Origin: a virus
Virus genome (UHGV): UHGV-0317053
Direction: 5' to 3' (one strand)
Length of the DNA stretch: 37,827 bases
Each line of letters begins with the position of its first letter. The stretch's first letter is position 1. This document shows positions 2,239 through 34,983 of this stretch, piece after piece. The position numbers and the translations under genes were made by a program. A model generated the notes under the pieces. The model searched no databases and had not been told where the DNA came from. It was given only the letters and a program-made list of their open reading frames with translations.

Positions 2239-2313
2239 GTCCTCTTAGTTAAATGGATATAACGAGCCCCTCCTAAGGGCTAATTGCAGGTTCGATTCCT
2301 GCAGGGGACGCCA
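2239..2313 (+). tRNA. argW: tRNA-Arg (anticodon CCU)
   Basis: 75-nt cloverleaf: acceptor stem GUCCUCU/AGGGGAC, anticodon loop CUCCUAA, T-arm GCAGG-TTCGATT-CCTGC, CCA end; 3' end is G-CCA (discriminator G) rather than A-CCA. Confidence 0.95.
2299..2313 (+). other. attL core (ctgcaggggacgcca) within tRNA 3' end
   Basis: Matches attR copy at 37603..37617 with one mismatch (g vs a). Confidence 0.8.
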
Positions 2314-2474
2314 TTTATCAGTTCGCTCCCATCCGTACCAGTCCGCAAAATTCCCTGAATATCAAGCCTTCCGTAGATTCACAGTTCGTAATGGTTCGCG
2401 TCAGATCGTTGACAGCCGCACACCATGACGGGTAAAAAGTGGATAAAATAATTTTACCCACCGGATTTTTACCC

Positions 2475-3632
2475 ATGCTCACCGTTAAGCAGATTGAAGC
2501 AGCAAAGCCGAAAGAAAAACCATACCGCCTACTCGATGGTAATGGCCTGTACCTTTATGTCCCTGTATCAGGGAAAAAGGTATGGCAGCTTCGCTACAAG
2601 ATTGACGGTAAGGAGAAAATCCTGACTGTCGGAAAATATCCGCTTATGACTTTGCAGGAGGCAAGGGATAAAGCATGGACTGCGAGGAAAGACATCTCGG
2701 TTGGCATCGATCCGGTAAAGGCGAAAAAGGCTTCGTCTAACAACAATTCCTTTAGTGCAATTTACAAGGAATGGTACGAACACAAGAAGCAAGTCTGGTC
2801 AGTAGGGTATGCGACTGAACTTGCAAAAATGTTTGATGACGACATTATACCCATCATCGGCGGCCTTGAAATTCAGGATATTGAGCCGATGCAACTGCTG
2901 GAAGTAATCCGCAGATTTGAAGATCGCGGTGCAATGGAGCGAGCCAACAAAGCACGAAGAAGATGCGGCGAGGTTTTTCGTTACGCTATTGTCACTGGTA
3001 GGGCTAAATATAACCCGGCACCTGACCTTGCTGACGCCATGAAGGGATACCGCAAGAAGAACTTCCCGTTTCTTCCTGCAGACCAGATCCCGGCATTCAA
3101 CAAAGCACTGGCAACATTTTCAGGAAGTATCGTATCGCTCATTGCGACCAAAGTTTTACGCTACACTGCCCTAAGAACGAAAGAGCTTCGTTCCATGCTA
3201 TGGAAGAACGTCGATTTTGAAAACAGGATTATCACCATCGACGCCAGTGTGATGAAAGGACGCAAAATTCATGTGGTCCCGATGTCAGACCAGGTGGTTG
3301 AACTTCTCACTACGCTAAGCTCAATCACCAAACCAGTATCAGAGTTTGTTTTTGCCGGGCGCAACGATAAGAAGAAGCCAATCTGCGAGAACGCGGTATT
3401 GCTTGTGATCAAACAAATCGGCTATGAGGGTCTGGAAAGCGGTCACGGATTCAGGCATGAATTCAGCACAATTATGAACGAGCACGAATGGCCTGCCGAC
3501 GCCATTGAAGTGCAACTGGCACATGCCAACGGCGGTTCTGTGCGTGGAATTTACAACCATGCTCAGTATCTCGATAAGCGCAGAGAAATGATGCAGTGGT
3601 GGGCAGACTGGCTTGATGAAAAGGCATCATAG
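2475..3632 (+). CDS. intS: P4-family tyrosine integrase
   Basis: N-terminus MLTVKQIEAAKPKEKPYRLLDGNGLYLYV typical of P4-type integrases; C-terminal HGFRH box and catalytic Tyr region; directly 3' of the tRNA. ATG at 2475 chosen (385 aa); ORF-track start 2439 is an upstream in-frame extension. Confidence 0.9.
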   Translation: MLTVKQIEAAKPKEKPYRLLDGNGLYLYVPVSGKKVWQLRYKIDGKEKILTVGKYPLMTLQEARDKAWTARKDISVGIDPVKAKKASSNNNSFSAIYKEWYEHKKQVWSVGYATELAKMFDDDIIPIIGGLEIQDIEPMQLLEVIRRFEDRGAMERANKARRRCGEVFRYAIVTGRAKYNPAPDLADAMKGYRKKNFPFLPADQIPAFNKALATFSGSIVSLIATKVLRYTALRTKELRSMLWKNVDFENRIITIDASVMKGRKIHVVPMSDQVVELLTTLSSITKPVSEFVFAGRNDKKKPICENAVLLVIKQIGYEGLESGHGFRHEFSTIMNEHEWPADAIEVQLAHANGGSVRGIYNHAQYLDKRREMMQWWADWLDEKAS

Positions 3633-3990
3633 AAGAGCACAAAGCCTTGCGTCCAGTGCAAAGCTTTGTGTGTCTCAGTTTTGTCCTGTGCGCCAGATAT
3701 TGAATGGCCTCGGCACCGTAACGTATCCGATCGCGCTTCCTGCAGGTGCTGTGCCGGTCATAATTGTTTCAGACCTGATTTCCAGTGACCCTGGAGATAC
3801 TCACGTAATTCACCAGTCGGTTGTAATTAACGCCTCTCGAACAGTTAGTGGATTTTCCGTACGGCAGAGATCAACCGGCACAACAACACCGGCAAACGGC
3901 TACGCATGGGAGATAATATATGCGCCTGTTTAATCCAGTAACAATGACAGAAGTTACCCCCGGTTTTCACGATGACGGAAATTCCAGAAG

Positions 3991-4023
3991 GAAAAATGCT
4001 CGCCGTGAATGACAACGGCGAGC
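3991..4023 (-). terminator. intrinsic terminator ending the late/tail operon
   Basis: 9-bp perfect stem gctcgccgt/acggcgagc, 8-nt loop, followed on the minus strand by ATTTTTCC; 16 bp downstream of the tfa stop. Confidence 0.5.
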
Positions 4024-4038
4024 CTGTATTGATTGATG

Positions 4039-4458
4039 CTACACAGAAGGCGGTACCGGCCAGTCAGGATTAGCGGTATCGACAGCATTCAGTTTGTCGA
4101 TGTAGGCCAGCCAACTGATTAGGCTGGCCTTTTCAGCATCGTTGATGATGCCGAGCAGTAGCTTACTCTGCCAGTTGCTAATTGTGGATTGTGCTTTCTC
4201 CTGTAACGTAGACTTTCTTAATTCTGCCGCAGCGACCAGCTGTTCCTGAGTTAGCGCTGGAGCGTCAATCCATATGGGCAGGCCATCACTTCCCGCCGCG
4301 CGTATCTTCCCCTCTGGTGGCTCTCTTGTAAATTCATTAAAAATAGCTTCATCAACATCAATGCCATCATCAGGCCAGCTCCCTGCCGAAAGATAATTTT
4401 CTTTTAGCAAATACGGATAAAACGCGTTTTTTGATGGGCTGAAAATATAATTAGTCAT
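4039..4458 (-). CDS. tail fiber assembly protein (Tfa)
   Basis: N-terminus MTNYIFSPSKNAFYPY and C-terminal ...SWLAYIDKLNAVDTANPDWPVPP typical of Tfa chaperones; ATG 4458 has AGGAT SD; ORF-track start 4533 is an extension. Confidence 0.8.
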   Translation of the reverse strand: MTNYIFSPSKNAFYPYLLKENYLSAGSWPDDGIDVDEAIFNEFTREPPEGKIRAAGSDGLPIWIDAPALTQEQLVAAAELRKSTLQEKAQSTISNWQSKLLLGIINDAEKASLISWLAYIDKLNAVDTANPDWPVPPSV

Positions 4459-19705: not shown

Positions 19706-21439
19706 TTAAAGCGAGCGGATCCCGTAGGACTCAATGTGATCAGACAGCGTGTCTTCTTTCTCGTACAGCATGGCTCTGCCAACCGCCATAATCAGCGCAA
19801 CTGCACCATCGATTTTGTTTTCCGCCTGCTCTTTGACGGGCTTCACCACATCATCGTTACCCGGAATGGTTTTGCCGACCACGTTGCCGATACACCAGGT
19901 CATGATGGGATTGCCATCATGATGAAAGCGCCCCGATTCAATTGCCGCTTCCAGCTCTTTCATCGGATCGGACATGTTGGTGTAGTTCTGAATGATAGTG
20001 ATGGGGTTCAGGTCTTCATCAGCAAGGTCATGTGACAGCCCGGTCGCCCCGAAGGGGTCGATGGGTGACTCACTGACCGGGCTGATTTTGTTCGCCGCTT
20101 TGGCCTCCTCGAGGATGTAGCGATAATCCACTTCCGCACCATCGGTAACGGTCAGAACGCCCATTTCCACCCATTTCTGAAAGCGTTCGGCTGTCCGTCG
20201 ATCTTCATTTTTCTCGACGCTGTACACCGTGTCATACGGTACCCAGAAACGCGGGGCCACACTGTAGTAATGCGTTTTACCGTCAATCTCGCGGGTATAA
20301 AGTCGCGCCATGCTGTTCATATCCAGTTTACGCGCCAGGTCAAAGGCCAGAATGCACGGCTGCCCCTCGAACTGCTCAAGGGTCAGTGATTTATCCTCGC
20401 AGCTCTGCCAGCTCACCAGGTTGAAATACGCCGAACGCGCCGACACCCAGATATTGAGGTGTTTTGTTTTAAAGACGTTTGCCAGACGGGCGTTATTTTT
20501 CGCACGCTGCTGCTGACTTAACAAAAATTCGCGATAAACCGACACGCCAATATTTGGATTGGCTTTTTCCAGCACCTGCGGGTCGGTCCAGTCGTCACCT
20601 TCATCAACGGTATAGATGATCCCGAACAGTTCATCGTTAGGCACCGAGCCGTTGAGCATCTCGATGACTTCCCGCCGCTTGTCGTAGCACGGCCCCTCAA
20701 TGTTGTACCCGGCGGTGGTGATGGCCCACATCAGTGGCTGACGTCGCGCCCCCATCCCGGTAAGCATTGTGGTATAAAGCGCATCGGTGGCGTGCTCGTG
20801 ATATTCATCCACCACCGCACAGTGGGGTGATGAACCATCACCAGGGTTACCGATCAGCGGTTCAAACCGCGCACCATCCTCCGGACGGTTCATGTTTGAG
20901 GCGTTAACCTCAATCCCGAACGCTTCCGTCAGCATGGGTGTGCGTTTACACATCAGTCGTGCCGGACGAAAGACTTCCCATGCCTGTTTCTCCGTCGTGG
21001 CACCGGAATACACTTCCGCGCCGAACTCGTTATCACAGGCAAAACAATACAGGGCAACACCGGCAGAGATTGCCGATTTGCCGTTCTTACGGGGGATTTC
21101 GGTATACACCTCCCGGAAGCGGCGCAGCCGGGAGCCTTTATTGACCCAGCCAAACGCGCAGCAGATCACAAAGAGCTGCCACGGCTCCAGCGTGATGGGC
21201 ATCCTCTTAAATGCCCACTCACCCTTGGTGTGCGGCAACAGCTGAATAAATTTCGCGGCCCGTTCAGCCAGGTCCTTGTCGAAGCGGTAACGAAACGACT
21301 TACTTTTTTCCGCCATCAGGTCATCAAGATGGCGCTGGCAGGCCTGAATCACAAACTGGCAGGCCACAATCTTTCCGCGCACGACATCACGGGCATACTG
21401 ATTGGCTGCATTTACGTTGGGGTAAGATTTCCGGCTCAT
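19706..21439 (-). CDS. terminase large subunit
   Basis: 577 aa with ATPase and nuclease regions (Terminase_1-like). Confidence 0.92.
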
Positions 21440-21930
21440 GATTCGATAATTTTCAGAAACGGGTTAGTGGCTTTCTTCTGCCCCGCCAGGCCAATCAGAC
21501 GCTGGCGGCTGCTGGGGTCGAGTCCGAGCATTGCCCCCGTGCTGCTCATCTCGGACTCCTGTTCTTTCTTGGCGGTCAGCTCCGGATTTTTGACCATACC
21601 GCCCATTGCACCGGTGATGGTGTTGCCCTGGCTGGCAATATTTTTCACGGCACGTCGCCAGAACTCATAGGCTACGCACCACCGCTCAAGCACCGCGAGG
21701 TCAGTCACGCACAGCAGGCCCTGACCGCAGAGTTCTTTGGTTGTCAGTTGCCACATGATCGTGGCGAGAGGGAGATTTTCTTCTGCGAACCACTCCGGTG
21801 GCTCAACGCCTTTGATGGGCGTAAAAACAGGTTCATCTTTGTTCAGGGCTCGCTTGCCGGGGTTTCCGGCTAGCGCCTTGCGCGCCGTTGGCTTGGGGCG
21901 ACGCCCGGAACGCCCCGCCGTTCCAGCCAT
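21436..21930 (-). CDS. terminase small subunit (P27 family-like)
   Basis: N-terminus [14 protein letters not shown]; ATG 21930 with AGGAG SD; overlaps terL start. Confidence 0.8.
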
Positions 21931-22055
21931 ATGCGGCACTCCTGGTTAAATTTCATTTTTCGCGGGTATAAAAAAACGATGGGGCGGGCAGTCCGGAAGA
22001 CGTCAGGTCACAGAGATTTGACCCGCCCCTCCCCTCAGACAGTTGAGAATTATTA

Positions 22056-22406
22056 TCACTTTAACCGTTCACGGGCCGTCTTCGCCTTATGACACGGCCA
22101 GCACAGGCTCTGCAGATTACTGTCGGCATCAGTGCCACCATGCGCTTTAGGGATGATATGGTCAACGGTTTTCGCCTCACGCACCACACCAGCACGCAGA
22201 CATAACTGACACAGGCCTTTGTCACGCTTCAGGACACGCGCGCGGATACTGTCCCACTTCGAACCGTAGCCGCGCTGATGACGGGACTGGCCTGGCTTGT
22301 ATTGCTTCCAGCCTTCGCTTTTGTGGCTTTCGCAATAGCCTGACGGGTCAGTCGTGGTATGGTGGCAGCCGCGAACACGGCAGGCTCTAGGTATCAGTGC
22401 TGGCAT
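22056..22406 (-). CDS. HNH endonuclease (packaging-associated)
   Basis: 116 aa with Cys clusters and DHIIP...GG...N...CH motif; adjacent to terS as in HK97-like phages. Confidence 0.85.
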   Translation of the reverse strand: MPALIPRACRVRGCHHTTTDPSGYCESHKSEGWKQYKPGQSRHQRGYGSKWDSIRARVLKRDKGLCQLCLRAGVVREAKTVDHIIPKAHGGTDADSNLQSLCWPCHKAKTARERLK

Positions 22407-22533
22407 AAAATACTCTCTTTAATCTGATAGACATATTTGACAAAAGAGATTCATTTTTCTCTTTCACTCTTTCCTTTATGAGAAAAATCTGATAACAAGG
22501 TTCTAATAAAAGTAACTAAACACAGGTTATAAC

Positions 22534-22908
22534 ATGAGTGAAAAGAAAACCGTTGCTTATCGCATTGAGGGATGCGAAAACACCAAAATGATTGGAAACA
22601 AATCATTTGGTGCTGATGTTGGTTATGAAATTATTGATTCAGCTAATACTTTTCTTTCCAACAATATTCATTACTCAGCAGAAACAGTTCGGCTTATAAA
22701 AGAAGCAGAAATCGCCATACAAAATAACTTAAGTGAAATTAACGATAAGCTGGGTGCAGAGAAGCTACAAGAAATATACGACATTTTAAATGATATCAAG
22801 TTTAATCAGTCATCAACACCTCTACAACTGATGGAGCGATTTTACTCAGCTGGTGCAAACACATTAACTTTATGGCCTATTATTCAGAGTCTCCTAAATA
22901 GTCTTTAA
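22534..22908 (+). CDS. hypothetical protein, opposite-strand moron
   Basis: 124-aa ORF in conspicuously AT-rich DNA, opposite to all neighbours; TTGACA hexamer at 22437..22442; no family recognised. Confidence 0.55.
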   Translation: MSEKKTVAYRIEGCENTKMIGNKSFGADVGYEIIDSANTFLSNNIHYSAETVRLIKEAEIAIQNNLSEINDKLGAEKLQEIYDILNDIKFNQSSTPLQLMERFYSAGANTLTLWPIIQSLLNSL

Positions 22909-22986
22909 TATTACAAATCCACTTTGGTTTGAGCATAAATTATAAAGATGTCTAGTAATAGGCATCTTCAATTTAAATTAAAATCT

Positions 22987-23235
22987 TCATCTAGCATTGT
23001 TTATACTGCGGATAGCCTTTTTATCTCTATTGCACTGCCCTAATGCAGACAACAGACTCACATTCAGCTCCAGACTGGCACCATATGTCAGTGGACTAGG
23101 TATAATTGGAATCGGTGTTTCAGAAGTTAGGGTGGTTGACAGTGGTGCTACTGGGGTGCTCACGTAAACTGTCCGCGTACTTCCGCAACCGGTCAGTAGC
23201 GGCAGCAGGCACAGGACGTGAAGCGCAATCATCAT
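22987..23235 (-). CDS. o-spanin (Rz1-like outer-membrane lipoprotein)
   Basis: Alternate frame overlapping Rz 3' end; signal peptide MMIALHVLCLLPLLTGC with lipobox, Pro-rich mature region. Confidence 0.6.
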   Translation of the reverse strand: MMIALHVLCLLPLLTGCGSTRTVYVSTPVAPLSTTLTSETPIPIIPSPLTYGASLELNVSLLSALGQCNRDKKAIRSINNAR

Positions 23236-23512
23236 TCGCAACAGCCACTTTGATATCTTCCTGGGTTCTCTGTGACTCCAGTGCGATCTGCTGTTTTGCA
23301 TGCTGGTTAGCCTCCAGTACTGTATTGACGATTTGCAGTGATTGCAGGACGTTATTGGTAATGGCAGTTGCCGATTTGGCATTTTGTACAGCCTCATCAG
23401 CACGTTTCTTTTCGTGCTGATATTTGCTGTAGTAGTGATTCGCTGACCAGATGAAAGAGCCAATAACAGTAAAGAAGAAAGCAGAGATAGTCAGCTTATA
23501 ACTCAACTTCAT
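23120..23512 (-). CDS. i-spanin (Rz-like)
   Basis: 130 aa, N-terminal TM helix then coiled-coil periplasmic region; follows endolysin. Confidence 0.7.
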   Translation of the reverse strand: MKLSYKLTISAFFFTVIGSFIWSANHYYSKYQHEKKRADEAVQNAKSATAITNNVLQSLQIVNTVLEANQHAKQQIALESQRTQEDIKVAVANDDCASRPVPAAATDRLRKYADSLREHPSSTTVNHPNF

Positions 23513-23972
23513 TTACCACCCCACCAGCCTCTTTAAATCGGGCAATCAGGTCACCGATTTTATGTTCATACTGACCGTAACCTGCACCGGGTAATGAAGC
23601 CCATATATTGCTGCAACGGTCGATTGCCTGACGAATATCGCCGCTATCAATCATAGGTAAAGCGCCACGCTCTTTAATCTGCTGCAATGCCACTGCGTCC
23701 TGGCTTTTGGGGGAGAAGTCTTTCAAACCAAGCTGTTTACGGTAAGCATCCCACCAACGGGAAAGAAGCTGGTAACGTCCGGCGGCTGTTGATTTGAGTT
23801 TGGAGTTTAGCTTGACAAGTTTGCGAGGGTGATCGGAGTAATCAGTGAACAGTTCGCCACCAACAATAACATCATAACCGTGGTTACGTGTCGGTTGTCG
23901 CCCGTTATCCGTTCCTTCTGACCATGCCACCATATCAAGGAAAGCTTTACGCTGGGGATTTAGTGCCTGCAT
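23496..23972 (-). CDS. R: endolysin, lambda R-type lytic transglycosylase
   Basis: 158 aa; near-identical over long stretches to remembered lambda R sequence (NQRKAFLDM.AWSEGTDNGRQ.TRNHGYDVIVGGELFTDYSDHPRKLV...). Confidence 0.88.
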   Translation of the reverse strand: MQALNPQRKAFLDMVAWSEGTDNGRQPTRNHGYDVIVGGELFTDYSDHPRKLVKLNSKLKSTAAGRYQLLSRWWDAYRKQLGLKDFSPKSQDAVALQQIKERGALPMIDSGDIRQAIDRCSNIWASLPGAGYGQYEHKIGDLIARFKEAGGVVNEVEL

Positions 23973-23975
23973 AAA

Positions 23976-24311
23976 TTACTCCTTAGAACTACCAAATTTG
24001 TTACCGATTACTCGCATTGCAGCCCCACGAATAGCATCGACACCGATCAGCCCAACGCCGCCACCAATGGCAACAGAAAGCGATTTAGGCCATCCGACAT
24101 ACTCAAGAGCGGATGCAAAGGTCAGCGTCAGAGCACCACAGAGCAAGATCTCGAGCGTTTTTCGCTTCCAGCCACCACCACTGCCAAAATAGGCAATGCG
24201 CAAGCCAGCCATAACGATCGACATAATCACTGCGCCCAGTGGCGTATCTCCACGCCACCAGCTCTGAAACAACTCCAGCCAGTCTGGCCAGGTATTTGGG
24301 TTATGAGGCAT
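23976..24311 (-). CDS. holin
   Basis: small membrane protein with hydrophobic helices directly upstream of endolysin; ATG 24311 chosen because ORF-track GTG start 24383 lies inside a terminator hairpin. Confidence 0.65.
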   Translation of the reverse strand: MPHNPNTWPDWLELFQSWWRGDTPLGAVIMSIVMAGLRIAYFGSGGGWKRKTLEILLCGALTLTFASALEYVGWPKSLSVAIGGGVGLIGVDAIRGAAMRVIGNKFGSSKE

Positions 24312-24355
24312 TTCGTCATCTCTCACCTCGCGATTATTTGCGGGTGCTGTGTTGG

Positions 24356-24381
24356 AAATAAAAAGGCCACGCAACGTGGCC
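24356..24381 (-). terminator. intrinsic terminator between methyltransferase and holin genes
   Basis: 7-bp perfect GC stem ggccacg/cgtggcc, 3-nt loop, followed on minus strand by TTTTTATTT. Confidence 0.5.
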
Positions 24382-24388
24382 ACCAGAA

Positions 24389-25441
24389 TTATTTCCCCAC
24401 CAGTTCACTTACCTCTTTCACCGTCTGATTAAACCGCTCTGACTCAAGTTCAACACCTAACGCCCGACGTCCCAGCGCCATTGCTGCTTTTATTGTGGAA
24501 CCGGATCCCATAAAAAAATCAGCAACCAGATCACCTGGTCGACTACTGGCATTGATTATTTGCCGGAGCATATCCGCAGGCTTCTCACACGGATGTTTAC
24601 CCGGGTAGAACTGAACGGGTTTATGCGTCCAGACGTCGGTATAAGGCACGGAAACTGATACGGAGAAATAGCGCCGGAGAGTTTTAAACTCATCCAGCAA
24701 TTCAGAATATTTGCGATTCAGTGAATCATAAGATGCCACCAGCTGGTGGTGTGGTTGTTCCAGTTGTTGTTCCTGAAACTTCTCTGCCGCTATACGGGAA
24801 AACAGTGCCTGTAACTTCCGATAGTCAGCCTCATTCGGCAACTGCCACTGACTGGCACCAAACCAGTGGGAAACCATATTTTTCTTACCTGTGGCTTCGG
24901 CAATTTGTTTTGCCGTTATACCCAGTTCGGCACGAGCATCCCTGAAATACGATATCAGCGGTGCCATTATGTGCTGTTTGAGTTCCCTTTCTTTTGCCGC
25001 ATAGCCGTCACTTTTGCCGCGATATGGCCCCTGGTAATGTTCAGCAAACAGAACGCGCTCTGTGGCAGGAAAATATGCGCGCAGACTTTCTTTATTACAC
25101 CCATTCCAACGTCCGGACGGCTTCGCCCAGATGATATGGTTAAGCACGTTGAAACGTTCACGCATCATGATCTCAATATCAGATGCCAGGCGATGCCCAC
25201 AGAACAGGTAAAGGCTTCCGGCAGGTTTCAACACCCGCCAGAACTGGGCCAGACAGTGGTCCAGCCACTTAAGGTAATCTTCGTCCCCTTTCCACTGATT
25301 GTCCCAACCGTTGGGTTTCACCTTGAAGTAAGGCGGATCGGTAACAATCAGGTCAATGGAATCATCAGGCAGGGACTGAATAAAATGCAGGCAATCAGCG
25401 TTGATTAAATCAACACTGTTTATTTTTACAGTATTTTTCAT
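24389..25441 (-). CDS. DNA methyltransferase, beta-class amino-MTase (N6-adenine or N4-cytosine; YhdJ-like)
   Basis: 350 aa; motif IV DPPY near N-terminus (LIVTDPPY) and motif I FxGxG near C-terminus (DFFMGSGST). Confidence 0.85.
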   Translation of the reverse strand: MKNTVKINSVDLINADCLHFIQSLPDDSIDLIVTDPPYFKVKPNGWDNQWKGDEDYLKWLDHCLAQFWRVLKPAGSLYLFCGHRLASDIEIMMRERFNVLNHIIWAKPSGRWNGCNKESLRAYFPATERVLFAEHYQGPYRGKSDGYAAKERELKQHIMAPLISYFRDARAELGITAKQIAEATGKKNMVSHWFGASQWQLPNEADYRKLQALFSRIAAEKFQEQQLEQPHHQLVASYDSLNRKYSELLDEFKTLRRYFSVSVSVPYTDVWTHKPVQFYPGKHPCEKPADMLRQIINASSRPGDLVADFFMGSGSTIKAAMALGRRALGVELESERFNQTVKEVSELVGK

Positions 25442-31782: not shown

Positions 31783-32375
31783 GCGTTAGTTTCTCCACAG
31801 TCACGACACGCCACGGCGCCCGGAGCTGCACACTCGCGGGCGTCATTACTTTCTGAAATGCAAAAAATTTTGTAGACCAGTGCTGCATGCTCCTGCAGCT
31901 TCGAAATTGAGAGATACAGCTCGTCGTTAATTGCTGTCTTCTCATGCGGTTCCACCACACCGTCTTCGATTGCCGAACGAATCTGTCTGGAATAACTGCC
32001 AATCTGTTCAATGACTTCCAGCAGGCGCTGGTTAATATCGGCGTTGTCCACATCCTCGACGTCAGGAAGAGACACAAAGACGCCATTTGCAGACTGCGCC
32101 ACAGCGTCAGCAATGAAGTGAGTTCCACCAGCACGTTGCAAAATCATTGCCCATCCCAGCGGGAAAATCTGATCGCCATCGGCACGAAGGCGGTTAAATA
32201 ATGCGTTTTCTGTTACATCCAGCCAGTCAGCTGCTTCAGCGTAACCACCCGGCAACGCTGCGATAGTTTTTCTGACAGCTTTCACGTACCACTCAGGCTG
32301 TTTTTCTACTTTCCAGTGATGCTTACCCACGGTTAGCCTCATCGTTCTGTGGTTTCTGTTAATCGATTTATCCAT
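31779..32375 (-). CDS. CII-like regulatory protein (phage 186 CII / YdaT-type)
   Basis: ATG overlaps cro stop (ATGGATAA); sequence pattern resembles remembered 186 CII family. Confidence 0.5.
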
Positions 32376-32568
32376 TAGATTTTTCATAAAGCTCAGGTTT
32401 AAATGGCAACCGTCCGCAAGTTCTATATGCAGCTTCTGCTGCACGTCCTTTTGGAATTAACTGGCCCGGACGGTTTCGCCACTGATAAACGGCTTCAGTT
32501 GTTATGCCGAAAAAAGCAGCAACTTTCTCAATACTGCCGAAGTAGCTTTCGATATCGTCAGTTGTCAT
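32368..32568 (-). CDS. cro: Cro-like repressor
   Basis: 66 aa HTH protein divergent from cI; GGAGGG SD. Confidence 0.75.
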   Translation of the reverse strand: MTTDDIESYFGSIEKVAAFFGITTEAVYQWRNRPGQLIPKGRAAEAAYRTCGRLPFKPELYEKSNG

Positions 32569-32577
32569 ACGCCCTCC

Positions 32578-32634
32578 AAACTAAGTTTTATTAGATGCTA
32601 ATTACAAATCTATCTTTGGTCAATAAAAACTAAG
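32578..32634. promoter_or_regulatory. cI-cro operator region with repeated AAACTAAG motifs
   Basis: AAACTAAG at 32578..32585 and 32627..32634 flanking the pR hexamers; short palindromes ATTAG-N3-CTAAT and CTAAG-N4-CTTAG. Confidence 0.4.
32595..32623 (-). promoter_or_regulatory. candidate pR promoter
   Basis: minus-strand -35 TTGACC, 17-bp spacer, -10 TAGCAT, upstream of cro. Confidence 0.4.
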
Positions 32635-32665
32635 ATTACTTAGCAATTCAAGAAATGGTGCTCCT

Positions 32666-33292
32666 ATGGAAACGGTTGGTCAGCGTATAAAAGCTCTGAG
32701 AAGAGTTACCGGAACGTCCCAGAAAGAATTGGGTAAATTTTGTGGAGTAAGCGACGTTGCTGTGGGGTACTGGGAGAAAGACATCAATACCCCTGGTGGG
32801 GAGGCACTTTCGAAATTAGCGAAGTTCTTCAATACGTCAATAGACTACATTCTTTATGGTGCTGAGTTTGAAGGCAAACTCGTCACAAACATGCGCAGAG
32901 TTCCTGTAATATCGTGGGTTCAGGCTGGGCAGTTTACTGAGTGCAGGGCAGCAGAAGTGTTTAGTGAAGTGGACAAGTGGGTAGATACATCATTAAAGAT
33001 TGGTGATAACTCATTTGCATTAGAGGTTAAAGGTGACTCCATGACTAACCCTAATGGCCTCCCAACAATACCAGAAGGCGCAACAGTGATTGTAGATCCA
33101 GATGCAGAACCTCGTCATGGAAAAATAGTCATCGCTCGACTTGATGGAACAAACGAAGCTACAGTAAAAAAATTAGTCATCGATGGCCCTCAAAAGTTTT
33201 TAGTGCCATTAAATCCTCGGTATCCCAACATCCCTATCAATGGTAATTGCCTTATCATTGGTGTAGTCAAAGGAGTTCAATACGAACTCTAA
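32666..33292 (+). CDS. cI: CI-like repressor (HTH-XRE N-domain plus S24 LexA-like peptidase C-domain)
   Basis: 208 aa; HTH (SQKELGKFCGVSDVAVGYWE), Ala-Gly cleavage site (QAGQ), Ser/Lys dyad region (GDSM ... KK). Confidence 0.85.
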   Translation: METVGQRIKALRRVTGTSQKELGKFCGVSDVAVGYWEKDINTPGGEALSKLAKFFNTSIDYILYGAEFEGKLVTNMRRVPVISWVQAGQFTECRAAEVFSEVDKWVDTSLKIGDNSFALEVKGDSMTNPNGLPTIPEGATVIVDPDAEPRHGKIVIARLDGTNEATVKKLVIDGPQKFLVPLNPRYPNIPINGNCLIIGVVKGVQYEL

Positions 33293-33305
33293 GACCTCTC
33301 TTCTC

Positions 33306-33373
33306 TAACTAAGGCACCGAACTAAGAAAAGTTTGGTGTTTTCTCTTGCCATAATAACTAAGTTAAGTTAGAT
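33306..33373 (+). promoter_or_regulatory. candidate early-left promoter/operator (pL/OL analog)
   Basis: three AACTAAG copies (33306, 33319, 33355) and -35 TTGCCA / 17 bp / -10 TAGATT (33345..33373) immediately after cI. Confidence 0.35.
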
Positions 33374-33454
33374 TTTATATCAAAGATAACGAACAGGCAG
33401 GACGCCCACGAAGTAGCCGCCTGGGGCATATGAAGTCCAGGATGATTCGTTAGC

Positions 33455-33480
33455 AACAAAAAAGCGCCCTACAGGACGCT
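33455..33480 (-). terminator. intrinsic terminator for minus-strand transcript of orf144
   Basis: 7-bp stem including one G-U pair on the minus-strand RNA, 4-nt loop, T-run; on the plus strand the stem has a C-A mismatch and no T-run. Confidence 0.5.
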
Positions 33481-33539
33481 TAGCTCTTTAACAATCTGGT
33501 CCCCATCAACAAGTAACTGATAACTTGAGGAGATGTGAA

Positions 33540-33746
33540 ATGCACAAAACAGAACCCAAAATCGTCGCGCCTGGCTACACAGATGAGGAAATTTATGAGT
33601 GGATGACAAAGAAGCTGGCAGCTATAAACCAGCTTCGTGAAGTGCTGTCTTATCGACAGGAAACAATAGACTCCTTAAAAAAACTGGATCAGGAAATCAC
33701 GGTTTTATCACAGGATGTTACTTTAGATATTGTGCAGACAAATTAG
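33540..33746 (+). CDS. hypothetical 68-aa protein at the first-gene position of the early-left operon
   Basis: GAGGAG SD 7 nt upstream of ATG 33540; acidic, coiled-coil-like; 3' end overlaps orf144 convergently by 29 bp. Confidence 0.5.
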   Translation: MHKTEPKIVAPGYTDEEIYEWMTKKLAAINQLREVLSYRQETIDSLKKLDQEITVLSQDVTLDIVQTN

Positions 33747-34152
33747 GATCCCATTCATTTTCGTCAAAATCATCAAAGTGATGAATTTGTGATCTCCAGT
33801 CTCGATAATCTAAAAATTTCTGGGCGGTTACGCTTATTTTATCAAGTGTGAGTTCATCCTGAATTGAAAGAAGAAGTTCATCAAATTTCATCTCATTAAT
33901 CTGTTTTGGCATCCAGTGATGCTTCATCAGAATAAGGTGAACCAGAGCCTTTTTCCCATTCAACTGATTATAGGGAGTGCCGAATTTCTTCCGGTGCTCA
34001 TGTAAGACAAGGTCCAAAAGAGTAAGTAATGTTGCCCTTGATTCAACTTTGCTTATTTCGACTGATGACACTACCCCACTGATTTCAATGCCCCGATACT
34101 TTCCAACATTTTCACAGTGGGATTTGTACAGCGTATAGATATTACCGGACAT
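33718..34152 (-). CDS. hypothetical 144-aa protein in AT-rich island (candidate exclusion/defense factor)
   Basis: lone minus-strand gene with AAGGA SD, own terminator; low GC relative to flanks; C-terminal RDWRSQIH (Rx6H-like) motif. Confidence 0.6.
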   Translation of the reverse strand: MSGNIYTLYKSHCENVGKYRGIEISGVVSSVEISKVESRATLLTLLDLVLHEHRKKFGTPYNQLNGKKALVHLILMKHHWMPKQINEMKFDELLLSIQDELTLDKISVTAQKFLDYRDWRSQIHHFDDFDENEWDPNLSAQYLK

Positions 34153-34436
34153 TTCTTTTCCTTTTGCGTTGTTGGGGATAACCAGATTAACCGAATCCTT
34201 GTTGTTGGGGAATAACTAGGTCCACCTCGCCTGATGTGGCTAAAAGCAGGCACATAACAGCTAAGTATTTTCAACCAGAGAGAATCCTTAGCGTTGTGGT
34301 GAATGCGGCTCAGCGCACGCGGGTTAAGGTTGAGGCTGACAGTCGACCTTCTGTGGATACCCACCCGCCTGGTGTGCAACCTTCGCCAGGCACCGGGAGG
34401 CACCCGGCACCACAACTTTATGCTGTGTGTAGTCTT

Positions 34437-34483
34437 GGCGGTACCAGCTTGTACCCTTGCTTCCGGCTGGTACCGTCCTTTTT
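34437..34483 (+). terminator. intrinsic terminator-like hairpin in early-left leader
   Basis: 12-bp GC-rich stem (ggcggtaccagc / gctggtaccgtc) with 17-nt loop, then T5. Confidence 0.5.
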
Positions 34484-34485
34484 AC

Positions 34486-34570
34486 AAAACAGAGAAGAGC
34501 ATCACCGGACGACGGGCTCATAACCCAATCCATCCGGGCGGCAGTCACCGCAGGTGTTCTTCTCTGTTTT
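34486..34570 (+). terminator. second long-range stem with A-tract/T-tract flanks
   Basis: acagagaaga pairs with ttcttctctgt across ~57 nt GC-rich loop, followed by TTTT. Confidence 0.35.
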
Positions 34571-34620
34571 GTGGAGAAACTAACCGACCTTGCAGGGTCG
34601 ATATGATGAGGAGCAGCAAA

Positions 34621-34983
34621 ATGGCTAGCGAACGCAGTACTGATGTGCAGGCATTTATCGGGGAGCTGGACGGCGGCGTATTTGAAACCAAAATCGGCGC
34701 AGTTCTCAGTGAAGTCGCTTCCGGTGTGATGAACACGAAAACCAAAGGTAAGGTCTCGCTCAACCTGGAAATCGAACCGTTTGATGAGAACCGAGTGAAA
34801 ATCAAACACAAACTCTCATATGTTCGCCCGACTAACCGCGGGAAAATTTCCGAAGAAGACACCACCGAAACGCCAATGTATGTCAATCGCGGTGGTCGCC
34901 TGACTATTCTGCAGGAAGACCAGGGACAGTTACTGACTCTTGCCGGTGAACCTGACGGAAAACTCCGCGCAGCAGGTCGTTAA
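34621..34983 (+). CDS. yfdP: YfdP-like protein
   Basis: 120 aa; GAGGAG SD 7 nt upstream of ATG 34621; ORF-track start 34303 is an unlikely GC-rich extension; precedes yfdQ as in K-12. Confidence 0.6.
   Translation: MASERSTDVQAFIGELDGGVFETKIGAVLSEVASGVMNTKTKGKVSLNLEIEPFDENRVKIKHKLSYVRPTNRGKISEEDTTETPMYVNRGGRLTILQEDQGQLLTLAGEPDGKLRAAGR

What the first reader, a model, noticed from the sequence alone, without database searches (positions are those of the whole stretch)
22407..22986. AT-rich opposite-strand moron between lysis and packaging modules
A 124-aa ORF (22534..22908) sits alone on the plus strand inside a long minus-strand late operon, in DNA much more AT-rich than its flanks, with a TTGACA hexamer upstream. 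I recognise no family. Morons at this position often encode lysogenic-conversion, exclusion or anti-defense functions.
Basis: inference. Interest (0 to 1): 0.5.

Follow-up and report, generated by a model that had tools for sequence, protein, structure and literature searches.

The report
Opposite-strand prophage accessory gene, new family
A small, foreign-looking gene inserted backwards between the lysis and DNA-packaging genes of an E. coli prophage is a real, conserved gene of an undescribed protein family that always sits in this same spot, the place where phages lambda and phi80 keep genes that work for the lysogen, but what it does is still unknown.

Summary
Window 22407-22986 is the most AT-rich stretch of the window (GC 0.31, against a mean of 0.52). 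It carries one plus-strand ORF, 22534..22908 (124 aa), inside a minus-strand late operon: Q, methyltransferase, holin, lysozyme, Rz/Rz1, then this insert, then HNH, TerS, TerL.

The ORF is a real gene. Non-synonymous differences are about a quarter as frequent as synonymous ones, homologues reach down to 20% identity, and no shuffle of the region gives an ORF this long.

The 580-bp insert is optional cargo. A related prophage has only 26 bp at this site, and others carry different genes there.

The protein matches no Pfam, PHROG, PADLOC or NCBIfam family and no solved structure. A confident AlphaFold model (pLDDT 88) shows two right-handed beta-helix rungs capped by a helical bundle with a conserved hydrophobic C-terminus.

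In all 27 loci with enough flanking DNA (nine different combinations of lysis and packaging modules), the gene lies just past the lysis cassette and converges on it. Lambda bor and phi80 taiEcA have the same geometry, but the protein is related to neither.

The "moron" reading is supported. The TTGACA hexamer is not a convincing promoter. Expression in lysogens and an anti-phage role are inferred by analogy, not shown. It is best filed as a new member of a known kind, of moderate interest.

The parts
22407..22986 (.). 580-bp AT-rich cargo cassette that fills the Rz1-HNH intergenic slot
   Evidence: GC 0.314, the lowest in the window. Homology to related prophages that carry other cargo breaks at about 22386-22391 and resumes at about 23000-23012. 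E. coli CX12 has only 26 bp here. The cassette is present in 15 of 5426 complete E. coli genomes at 98.8-100% identity, whereas its flanks are found in 1230 genomes.
22534..22908 (+). Protein-coding gene, 124 aa, pI 4.8. It has two 22-residue beta-helix (PbH1-like) repeats (residues about 7-28 and 29-50), a helical bundle (49-105) and a conserved C-terminal motif, S-x-G-A-N-T-L-T-x-W-P plus a hydrophobic helix.
22469..22533 (+). Conserved upstream block, the probable regulatory and translation-initiation region. It contains CTTTATGAGAAAAATCTGATAACAA (22474-22498) and a weak AGG Shine-Dalgarno 7 nt before the ATG.
   Evidence: The block is conserved with cassettes that are 70% identical and sit in unrelated left-flank contexts: L003/L005 next to a lambda-type terminase, L004 next to HNH. 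No consensus sigma-70 promoter was detected, so the role is inferred.
22438..22443 (+).
   Evidence: Present, without a -10 partner and outside the conserved block. It is probably incidental.
22936..22975 (+). Stem-loop between the convergent stop codons of the ORF and Rz1. The core is a 10-bp stem at 22945-22968 with a GUAA loop.
   Evidence: RNA fold of -16.6 kcal/mol, z = -3.4 against shuffles. Equivalent hairpins follow the stop codon in 7 of the 9 gene-downstream regions folded (window, L004, L021, L022, L024, L025 with z -3.4 to -5.4; L011 weaker at z -1.8; none stable in L008). Several carry U-tracts. In the window the U-tract is poor, so this is at best a weak terminator.
22987..23512 (-). 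Spanin pair: Rz (DUF2570) 23120..23512 with the embedded Rz1/LysC 22987..23235. This is the last gene pair of the lysis cassette and converges on the ORF.
   Evidence: Pfam DUF2570 and the RefSeq annotation of the identical KW21 locus.
22056..22406 (-). HNH endonuclease, the first gene of the packaging module, divergent from the ORF. Its ribosome-binding site lies inside the cassette.
   Evidence: PF01844, E = 4e-16. Sequence.

Best explanation
The region is a horizontally acquired single-gene accessory cassette (a moron). It sits in a recombination-tolerant hotspot at the boundary between the lysis and packaging modules of an E. coli lambdoid prophage with an HK97-type head and a Mu-type contractile tail.

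It encodes a real, selectively maintained cytoplasmic protein of a previously undescribed family. The protein is a mini right-handed beta-helix of two rungs, capped by a helical bundle, with a conserved hydrophobic C-terminal helix.

The gene is antisense to the Q-antiterminated late operon and converges on the spanin genes. The likely logic is that of a non-contiguous operon. The gene would be transcribed from its own promoter in the lysogen and damped by head-on late transcription once the prophage is induced, as shown experimentally for phi80 taiEcA and as known for lambda bor.

The most likely role is a lysogen-expressed function directed against other phages: superinfection exclusion, abortive infection or assembly interference. 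The beta-helix face would act as a protein-binding surface. In distant members the C-terminal helix would act as a membrane anchor.

Shown here: the cassette nature, the coding status, the new family and fold, and the invariant position and orientation. Inferred: the promoter, expression in lysogens, silencing by late transcription, and the anti-phage function. The confidence given is for the whole statement, including the inferred anti-phage role; the shown parts alone would rate about 0.9.
For: - **Foreign composition and real ORF:**
- **Optional cargo in a variable slot:** the slot is empty in CX12 and holds a 169-aa hypothetical protein, an S1 peptidase or a GrlR-family gene in other strains.
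- **Purifying selection:**
- **Family size and novelty:** 25 representatives in an exhaustive profile search, with no hit in Pfam, PHROGs, PADLOC, NCBIfam, PDB sequences, or PDB and BFVD folds.
- **Fold:** confident model, beta-helix signal, and a 22-residue internal repeat visible in the sequence.
- **Invariant position:** in 27 of 27 loci with enough flank, an endolysin gene lies 504-1271 nt downstream on the opposite strand and TerL lies upstream on the opposite strand. These loci span nine combinations of endolysin (GH24, GH19, GH108, Phage_lysozyme), spanin and terminase (P27/HNH, GpA, Terminase_3), and homologues down to 20% identity.
- **Shared family traits:** all homologues are AT-rich relative to their flanks. 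Those of L008, L011, L021 and L022 have good Shine-Dalgarno sequences. 7 of 9 have a hairpin after the stop codon.
- **Precedents for the geometry:** lambda bor lies 31 nt after Rz on the opposite strand. phi80 taiEcA is an opposite-strand gene upstream of the packaging module, expressed in the lysogen and reduced when Q is expressed (PMC11364771; locus).
Against: - No consensus promoter was found upstream, and the terminator in the window is weak.
- There is no homology to any known defence, exclusion or Tai protein.
- The window protein's C-terminal segment is not hydrophobic enough for a transmembrane helix (Kyte-Doolittle 19-residue maximum 0.86). Membrane association is plausible only for distant members (up to 1.94).
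- The position may reflect only where insertions are tolerated, and so say nothing about function.
- The family is rare: 15 of 5426 complete E. coli genomes, no match in isolated-phage or plasmid collections at E<=1e-3, and 3 metagenome loci. Rarity fits an accessory defence gene but also a nearly neutral passenger.
Confidence: 0.4

Rival explanations
1. Lysis-cassette accessory. The protein modulates the prophage's own lysis, for example as a cytoplasmic antiholin-like factor or a safeguard against leaky holin or spanin expression in the lysogen. Alternatively its transcript, reading past a weak terminator, acts as antisense RNA against Rz/Rz1, R and S.
For: The gene always sits directly next to the 3' end of the lysis cassette rather than next to the terminase, even when several other genes separate it from the packaging module (L003, L005, L011). 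In L024 its coding region ends about 40 nt from the Rz stop. The window hairpin lacks a U-tract, so read-through into Rz1 and Rz is conceivable.
Against: The neighbouring holins, endolysins and spanins belong to unrelated families across the loci. This argues against a specific protein partner in the cassette. Related prophages with an empty slot or other cargo keep the same lysis genes. Lambda bor has the same adjacency and no lysis role (plus established knowledge of Bor as a lipoprotein expressed in lysogens). Several homologues have strong terminators after the gene.
Confidence: 0.15
2. Other lysogenic-conversion or regulatory cargo. The protein acts on host physiology (stress tolerance, a regulatory interaction, a metabolic or virulence-linked trait) rather than on phages.
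For: Other cargo in the same slot includes a GrlR-family regulator and an S1 peptidase, so the slot is not reserved for defence genes. Strains carrying the cassette come from diverse hosts: poultry, pig, human, frog, goat and water.
Against: The protein has no DNA-binding, enzymatic or secretion signature and no signal peptide (sequence). It shows no enrichment in a pathotype or host that would suggest a niche trait.
Confidence: 0.15
3. Counter-defence (anti-restriction or anti-CRISPR-like) gene used by the phage during infection, as the first reader also suggested.
For: The protein is small, acidic (pI 4.8), of unknown family and AT-rich. Beta-helical proteins can mimic DNA; this point is general knowledge about pentapeptide-repeat proteins and was not tested here.
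Against: The gene is antisense to the late operon and far from the early region, so it would be poorly expressed at the time a counter-defence is needed. Net charge is only about -5. The repeats are PbH1-type, not pentapeptide.
Confidence: 0.05
4. Decaying or nearly neutral passenger: a real gene with no current function for the phage or the host, kept only because insertions at this module boundary do no harm.
For: Rarity. No recognisable promoter.
Against: Strong purifying selection with saturated synonymous sites. The gene is full-length in most of the cluster members listed (a few are shorter or annotated as partial), and two members alone are seen on 361 and 428 contigs. The cassette is more conserved (98.8-100%) than its flanks (95-97%) across the 15 genomes. 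Position and orientation are conserved at 20% identity.
Confidence: 0.08

Closest known systems
phi80 TaiEcA (orf63), tail-assembly-inhibition defence, with its non-contiguous-operon arrangement (He et al. 2024, PMC11364771)
   Same: It is a single accessory gene in a lambdoid prophage, lying downstream of the lysis cassette and upstream of the packaging module. It is transcribed opposite to the Q-dependent late operon that must read through it. TaiEcA is shown to be made in the lysogen and reduced when Q is expressed. Tai genes also lack hits in PADLOC and DefenseFinder.
   Different: There is no sequence relationship: hhalign probability 0.13% against the family profile. TaiEcA is 204 aa, this protein is 124 aa. 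TaiEcA is separated from Rz by rha and is paired with a late-strand antidote (atiEcA). This cassette has no room for a second gene. No phenotype is known for this family.
Lambda Bor (PF06291), the classical opposite-strand moron after Rz
   Same: Same slot and orientation: bor starts its reverse-strand ORF 31 nt after the Rz stop. It is a small gene (97 aa). It is expressed in lysogens (established knowledge: Barondess and Beckwith).
   Different: Bor is a lipoprotein with a signal peptide and lipobox (sequence; PF06291 at E = 2e-30). The 124-aa protein has neither and does not match PF06291.
Right-handed parallel beta-helix (PbH1 / Pfam Beta_helix, NosD; pectin-lyase-like fold)
   Different: There are only two rungs, against 7-12 or more in enzymes and tailspikes. 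There is no catalytic domain. The rungs are fused to a helical bundle, a combination not found in the PDB or BFVD.
Morons as defined for HK97 and lambdoid phages (Juhala, Hendrix and colleagues)
   Same: It is an extra gene absent from close relatives, with deviant base composition, inserted between two genes of a conserved operon and followed by a stem-loop.
   Different: The defining autonomous promoter could not be identified, and expression in the prophage state is untested.

Membership tests
Moron (autonomous accessory cassette in a phage operon) | Present in some genomes and absent from closely related ones at the same site | tested here: met
   The flanks are found in 1230 E. coli genomes and the cassette in 15. 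CX12 has 26 bp at the site, and other strains carry other cargo.
Moron (autonomous accessory cassette in a phage operon) | Base composition different from the surrounding phage genes | tested here: met
   GC 0.314 against 0.52 (z = -3.9); GC3 0.28 against 0.43-0.67. The same holds for every homologue examined.
Moron (autonomous accessory cassette in a phage operon) | Own promoter upstream and terminator downstream | tested here: inconclusive
   There is a stem-loop at 22936-22975 (z = -3.4) but no U-tract. Homologues have clearer terminators. No sigma-70-like site lies upstream; there is only a conserved 25-nt block.
Moron (autonomous accessory cassette in a phage operon) | Expressed from the repressed prophage | not testable with these tools
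   This needs RNA-seq, a reporter fusion or a western blot on lysogens.
Tai (tail assembly inhibition) defence proteins | Sequence homology to TaiEcA or the PICI Tai proteins | tested here: not met
   hhalign of the 23-sequence profile against phi80 Orf63 gives probability 0.13% and E = 0.46. tblastn against 50,697 phage records, phi80 included, gives no match.
Tai (tail assembly inhibition) defence proteins | Opposite-strand placement inside the Q late operon, upstream of the packaging module | tested here: met
   phi80 layout; description in PMC11364771.
Tai (tail assembly inhibition) defence proteins | Blocks tail assembly of infecting lambdoid phages | not testable with these tools
   This needs plaque assays and electron microscopy of lysates.
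Lambda Bor family (PF06291) | Match to PF06291, plus a signal peptide with a lipobox cysteine | tested here: not met
   No Pfam hit at E<=1. The N-terminus MSEKKTVAYRIEGC has no hydrophobic leader. The control, lambda Bor, scores 105 bits.
Known anti-phage defence systems (PADLOC-DB 2.0) | Match to any of the 5027 defence-protein models | tested here: not met
   0 families at E<=1. The library dates from 2023, so later systems are not covered.
Right-handed beta-helix repeat proteins (PbH1; Pfam Beta_helix PF13229 / NosD PF05048) | Tandem repeats of about 22 residues forming three-stranded rungs; match to the Pfam models | tested here: inconclusive
Membrane-anchored superinfection-exclusion proteins (the kind exemplified by HK97 gp15, P22 SieA/SieB, T4 Imm) | Predicted transmembrane segment or signal sequence | tested here: not met
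   The maximum 19-residue Kyte-Doolittle hydropathy is 0.86 in the window protein. Distant family members reach 1.6-1.9 at the same C-terminal position. No Pfam hit to any such family.

The most novel reading that the evidence does not exclude
The family is a new single-protein anti-phage system that lambdoid prophages keep in the bor/tai slot. Its two beta-helix rungs would dock onto, or mimic, beta-helical or beta-strand-rich virion parts of an invading phage, such as tail fibres or tailspikes. Alternatively they would sense such a part and trigger a membrane-directed abortive response through the conserved hydrophobic C-terminus. The antisense placement in the late operon would be the built-in switch that spares the prophage's own progeny, with no need for a separate antidote gene.
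Probability: 0.25. Interest if true: 0.65.

Novelty: new member of a known kind. Interest (0 to 1): 0.42.

Why it matters
Prophage hotspots have been a productive place to look for new immune systems. The slot between the lysis and packaging modules has already yielded Bor and Tai.

This work defines a compact, undescribed protein family: about 25 clusters at 50% identity, absent from Pfam, PHROGs and PADLOC. It has a confident and unusual two-domain model, and its position and orientation are kept through complete turnover of the neighbouring modules.

That gives a cheap and well-posed experiment. Clone 375 bp, challenge the strain with a phage panel, and compare lysogens with and without the cassette.

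If the gene is active, it would add a second, unrelated example of defence controlled by a non-contiguous operon. If it is inactive, the finding remains an ordinary moron of unknown function.

Tried and rejected
- **Chance ORF in AT-rich DNA:** rejected by shuffles (0 of 2000 reach 124 aa), by pN/pS of 0.24 and by distant homologues.
- **TTGACA as the promoter:** rejected. It has no -10 partner, the scan was negative, and it lies outside the conserved block. Hand-inspected alternatives (TGAGAA-N17-TCTAAT; an extended -10 TGATAACAA) are not conserved in the 70%-identical cassettes.
- **RNA element:** only two sub-threshold chance hits in Rfam.
- **Repeats or insertion scars at the cassette ends:** only short chance-level repeats.
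- **Homology searches that found nothing:** Pfam, PHROGs, PADLOC, NCBIfam; PDB by profile; tblastn against the phage and plasmid collections.
- **First AlphaFold run:** with 7 close sequences it gave an unusable model (pLDDT 58). It became usable only after the exhaustive search supplied distant members.
- **Giant repetitive proteins in the profile search** (P0010, P0020, P0022, P0025): judged spurious repeat matches after a Pfam scan.
- **Relationship to TaiEcA:** rejected.
- **Further context searches:**
  - The GTDB genome scan found no relative.
  - The alignment was too divergent for one scan.
  - Scans with P0013, P0016 and P0017 found no relative, and P0023 gave only a 24-residue match.
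  - The metagenome scan gave three near-identical loci.
  - The short contigs L032-L034 were uninformative; L032 lies beside IS21 fragments.
- **Other subfamilies in complete E. coli genomes:** searches with the P0024, P0031 and P0003 loci returned mainly flank matches. None covered 80% of the query, so these subfamilies appear to be absent or nearly so from complete E. coli genomes.

Full report
**1. Observation**

The window is an E. coli prophage. The 1.5 kb around the finding is 100% identical to the chromosome of strain KW21. There the prophage is integrated at a tRNA-Thr gene next to proA and carries an HK97-type head, a P27-family small terminase and a Mu-type contractile tail.

On the minus strand the late region reads in this order:
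- Q-type antiterminator
- DNA methyltransferase, 24389..25441
- holin, 23976..24383
- lysozyme, 23496..23972
- Rz 23120..23512, with the embedded Rz1/LysC 22987..23235
- HNH endonuclease, 22056..22406
- TerS, 21436..21939
- TerL, 19706..21439

Between the Rz1 stop and the HNH start lie 580 bp (22407-22986). They hold one plus-strand ORF, 22534..22908, of 124 codons.

The GC content of these 580 bp is 0.314. This is the lowest in the window: the mean is 0.518, z = -3.9, and the next lowest region is 0.381. GC3 of the ORF is 0.28, against 0.43-0.67 in its neighbours. An ORF this long never arose in 2000 shuffles of the region (maximum 111 aa).

The TTGACA hexamer is at 22438-22443. It has no suitably spaced -10 element, and the promoter scan found no plus-strand site upstream of the ORF.

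**2. It is a real gene and an optional cassette**

The word-indexed search of 5.8 billion proteins found only seven clusters (56-98% identity), from E. coli, Salmonella and Citrobacter. All are labelled hypothetical.

Against a 70%-identical homologue, synonymous sites are saturated (pS 0.77) while pN is 0.18. Two closer homologues give dN/dS 0.245. The gene is therefore under purifying selection.

The flanks of the cassette occur in 1230 of 5426 complete E. coli genomes, but the cassette itself occurs in only 15. In those 15 it is 98.8-100% identical, while the flanks are 95-97% identical.

The same slot varies between strains:
- In strain CX12 it is empty, with 26 bp between the HNH start and the Rz1 stop.
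- In other strains it holds a 169-aa hypothetical protein, an S1-family peptidase or a GrlR-family regulator.
- All of those alternative cargo genes are on the late strand.

Homology to these relatives breaks at about 22386-22391 and resumes at about 23000-23012.

**3. The protein**

No Pfam, PHROG, PADLOC or NCBIfam family matches. An exhaustive HMMER profile search of 1.84 billion cluster representatives found 25 proteins at E<1e-3, most of them 120-130 aa. A few giant repetitive proteins in that list are spurious.

The alignment shows three features:
- An N-terminal tandem repeat of 22 residues: VAYRIEGCENTKMIGNKSFGAD followed by VGYEIIDSANTFLSNNIHYSAE.
- A helical middle section.
- The most conserved element, a C-terminal S-x-G-A-N-T-L-T-x-W-P motif followed by a hydrophobic helix.

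AlphaFold2 with only the seven close sequences failed (pLDDT 58). With 23 diverse members it gave pLDDT 88.1 and pTM 0.75. The model has two rungs of three short strands each, followed by five helices.

The protein has no signal peptide. Its C-terminal segment has a 19-residue hydropathy of 0.86, which is too low for a transmembrane helix. The same segment reaches 1.6-1.9 in distant members, and one short relative (P0029) ends in an obvious transmembrane helix.

**4. Context is the strongest evidence**

I retrieved loci for close and distant members from assemblies, IMG/VR and metagenomes. I located lysis and packaging genes in them by Pfam and by tblastn with a panel of proteins.

In all 27 loci with enough flanking DNA:
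- An endolysin gene lies 504-1271 nt beyond the family gene's stop codon, on the opposite strand.
- The holins lie beyond the endolysin.
- TerL lies upstream, also on the opposite strand.

These loci represent nine different module combinations. The endolysins are GH24, GH19, GH108 or Phage_lysozyme. The spanins are DUF2570, PF03245 or others. The terminases are P27/HNH, lambda GpA or Terminase_3. The family members range down to 20% identity to the window protein.

Every homologue is AT-rich (0.32-0.41) relative to its flanks (0.45-0.56), and the homologues in L008, L011, L021 and L022 have good ribosome-binding sites. In 7 of the 9 downstream regions folded, a hairpin follows the stop codon, several with U-tracts. 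In the window the hairpin (22936-22975; -16.6 kcal/mol, z = -3.4) lacks a U-tract.

Upstream, a 25-nt block (CTTTATGAGAA[A/G]AATCTGATA[A/T]CAA) is conserved between cassettes that have unrelated left flanks. I could not turn it into a convincing sigma-70 promoter.

**5. How it most likely works**

The geometry has well-studied precedents: an autonomous gene, antisense to a Q-antiterminated late operon, converging on the spanin genes.

- **Lambda bor.** I verified that bor (97 aa, PF06291) lies 31 nt after Rz on the opposite strand.
- **phi80 taiEcA.** phi80 orf63 (taiEcA) lies after the lysis cassette and before cos, on the opposite strand. He et al. 2024 (PMC11364771) showed three things:
  - TaiEcA is made in the lysogen and blocks tail assembly of incoming lambdoid phages.
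  - TaiEcA expression drops when Q drives late transcription.

By analogy, I propose that the 124-aa protein is made in the lysogen and damped by head-on late transcription after induction. Its most likely role is against other phages. This step is inference: the family is unrelated to TaiEcA (hhalign probability 0.13%) and to Bor, and no phenotype is known.

The beta-helix rungs offer a flat protein-binding face, and the conserved hydrophobic C-terminus suggests membrane or partner binding. Neither point is tested.

**6. Rivals**

- **A role in the prophage's own lysis.** This is suggested by the strict adjacency to the lysis cassette. It is weakened because the neighbouring holins, endolysins and spanins are unrelated across the loci, and because relatives with empty or different slots keep the same lysis genes.
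- **A host-directed conversion or regulatory function.** This is possible, since the slot also carries a GrlR-family gene and a peptidase in other strains. No domain supports it.
- **A counter-defence role.** This fits the antisense late-operon position poorly.
- **A neutral passenger.** This is contradicted by purifying selection and by the conserved position and orientation.

**7. Novelty and verdict**

The kind of element is known: a moron in the lysis-packaging hotspot, arranged as a non-contiguous operon. The protein family, its mini beta-helix plus helical-bundle fold, and its invariant placement are undescribed in the libraries searched.

It is rare. It occurs in 0.3% of complete E. coli genomes, it is absent from 50,697 isolated-phage records and 72,556 plasmids, and it appears at three metagenome loci.

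I file it as a new member of a known kind. It is of moderate interest because it is a cheap and well-defined candidate for a new prophage-encoded anti-phage gene.

Noticed in passing
window 22387-23011; loci L002 3388-4118, L028 707-734, L029 783-1643, L030 803-1123: The Rz1-HNH junction is a cargo hotspot in this prophage lineage. It is empty in CX12, and it holds a 169-aa hypothetical protein in strain 3-72, an S1-family peptidase in TW10828 and a GrlR-family regulator in MIN14. All of these alternatives are on the late strand. The recombination breakpoints fall inside the first codons of HNH and the last codons of Rz1.
   Followed up: partly
window 22407-22986 compared with 22000-22406 and 22987-23500: Across the 15 E. 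coli genomes that carry it, the cassette is 98.8-100% identical while its flanks are only 95-97% identical. This suggests either recent spread of the cassette or faster recombination in the flanks.
   Followed up: partly
window 24389-25441 (-): A 350-aa N6/N4 DNA methyltransferase (PF01555, E = 1.5e-42) sits between the Q antiterminator and the holin. This is the late-operon position where Stx phages carry stx. It is probably another cargo gene, possibly an orphan methylase for restriction evasion.
   Followed up: partly
window 33586-34165; ORF 33718..34152 (-): This is the second most AT-rich patch in the window (GC 0.38), next to the immunity region. It overlaps a 144-aa minus-strand ORF whose KW21 equivalent is annotated as an 'ECs1072 family phage-associated protein'. 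It may be another moron.
   Followed up: no
window about 2300-4400 (KW21 locus L001 348-2320): A pinE-type site-specific invertase lies next to oppositely oriented tail-fibre and tail-fibre-assembly genes, including a truncated tail protein. This looks like an invertible host-range segment. A frameshifted GIY-YIG gene lies just outside it.
   Followed up: no
window about 32300-34900: The window is not identical to KW21 throughout. ORF coordinates in the immunity region are shifted by about 173 nt relative to the KW21 annotation, so the window comes from a related strain, not the same one, or carries an indel there.
   Followed up: no
L032 944-2377: A distant family member (P0032, 25% identity) lies beside IS21-type transposase fragments (rve, IstB) on a 2.5-kb contig. 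It is the only context seen that is not obviously next to a lysis cassette. The contig is too short to judge.
   Followed up: partly
L011/L012 2822-5667: In the prophages that carry P0031, three extra late-strand genes lie between the family gene and the HNH/terminase genes. One has a tail-tip-like motif and one has a weak glycosyltransferase signal. The lysis-packaging junction can therefore hold several cargo genes at once.
   Followed up: no
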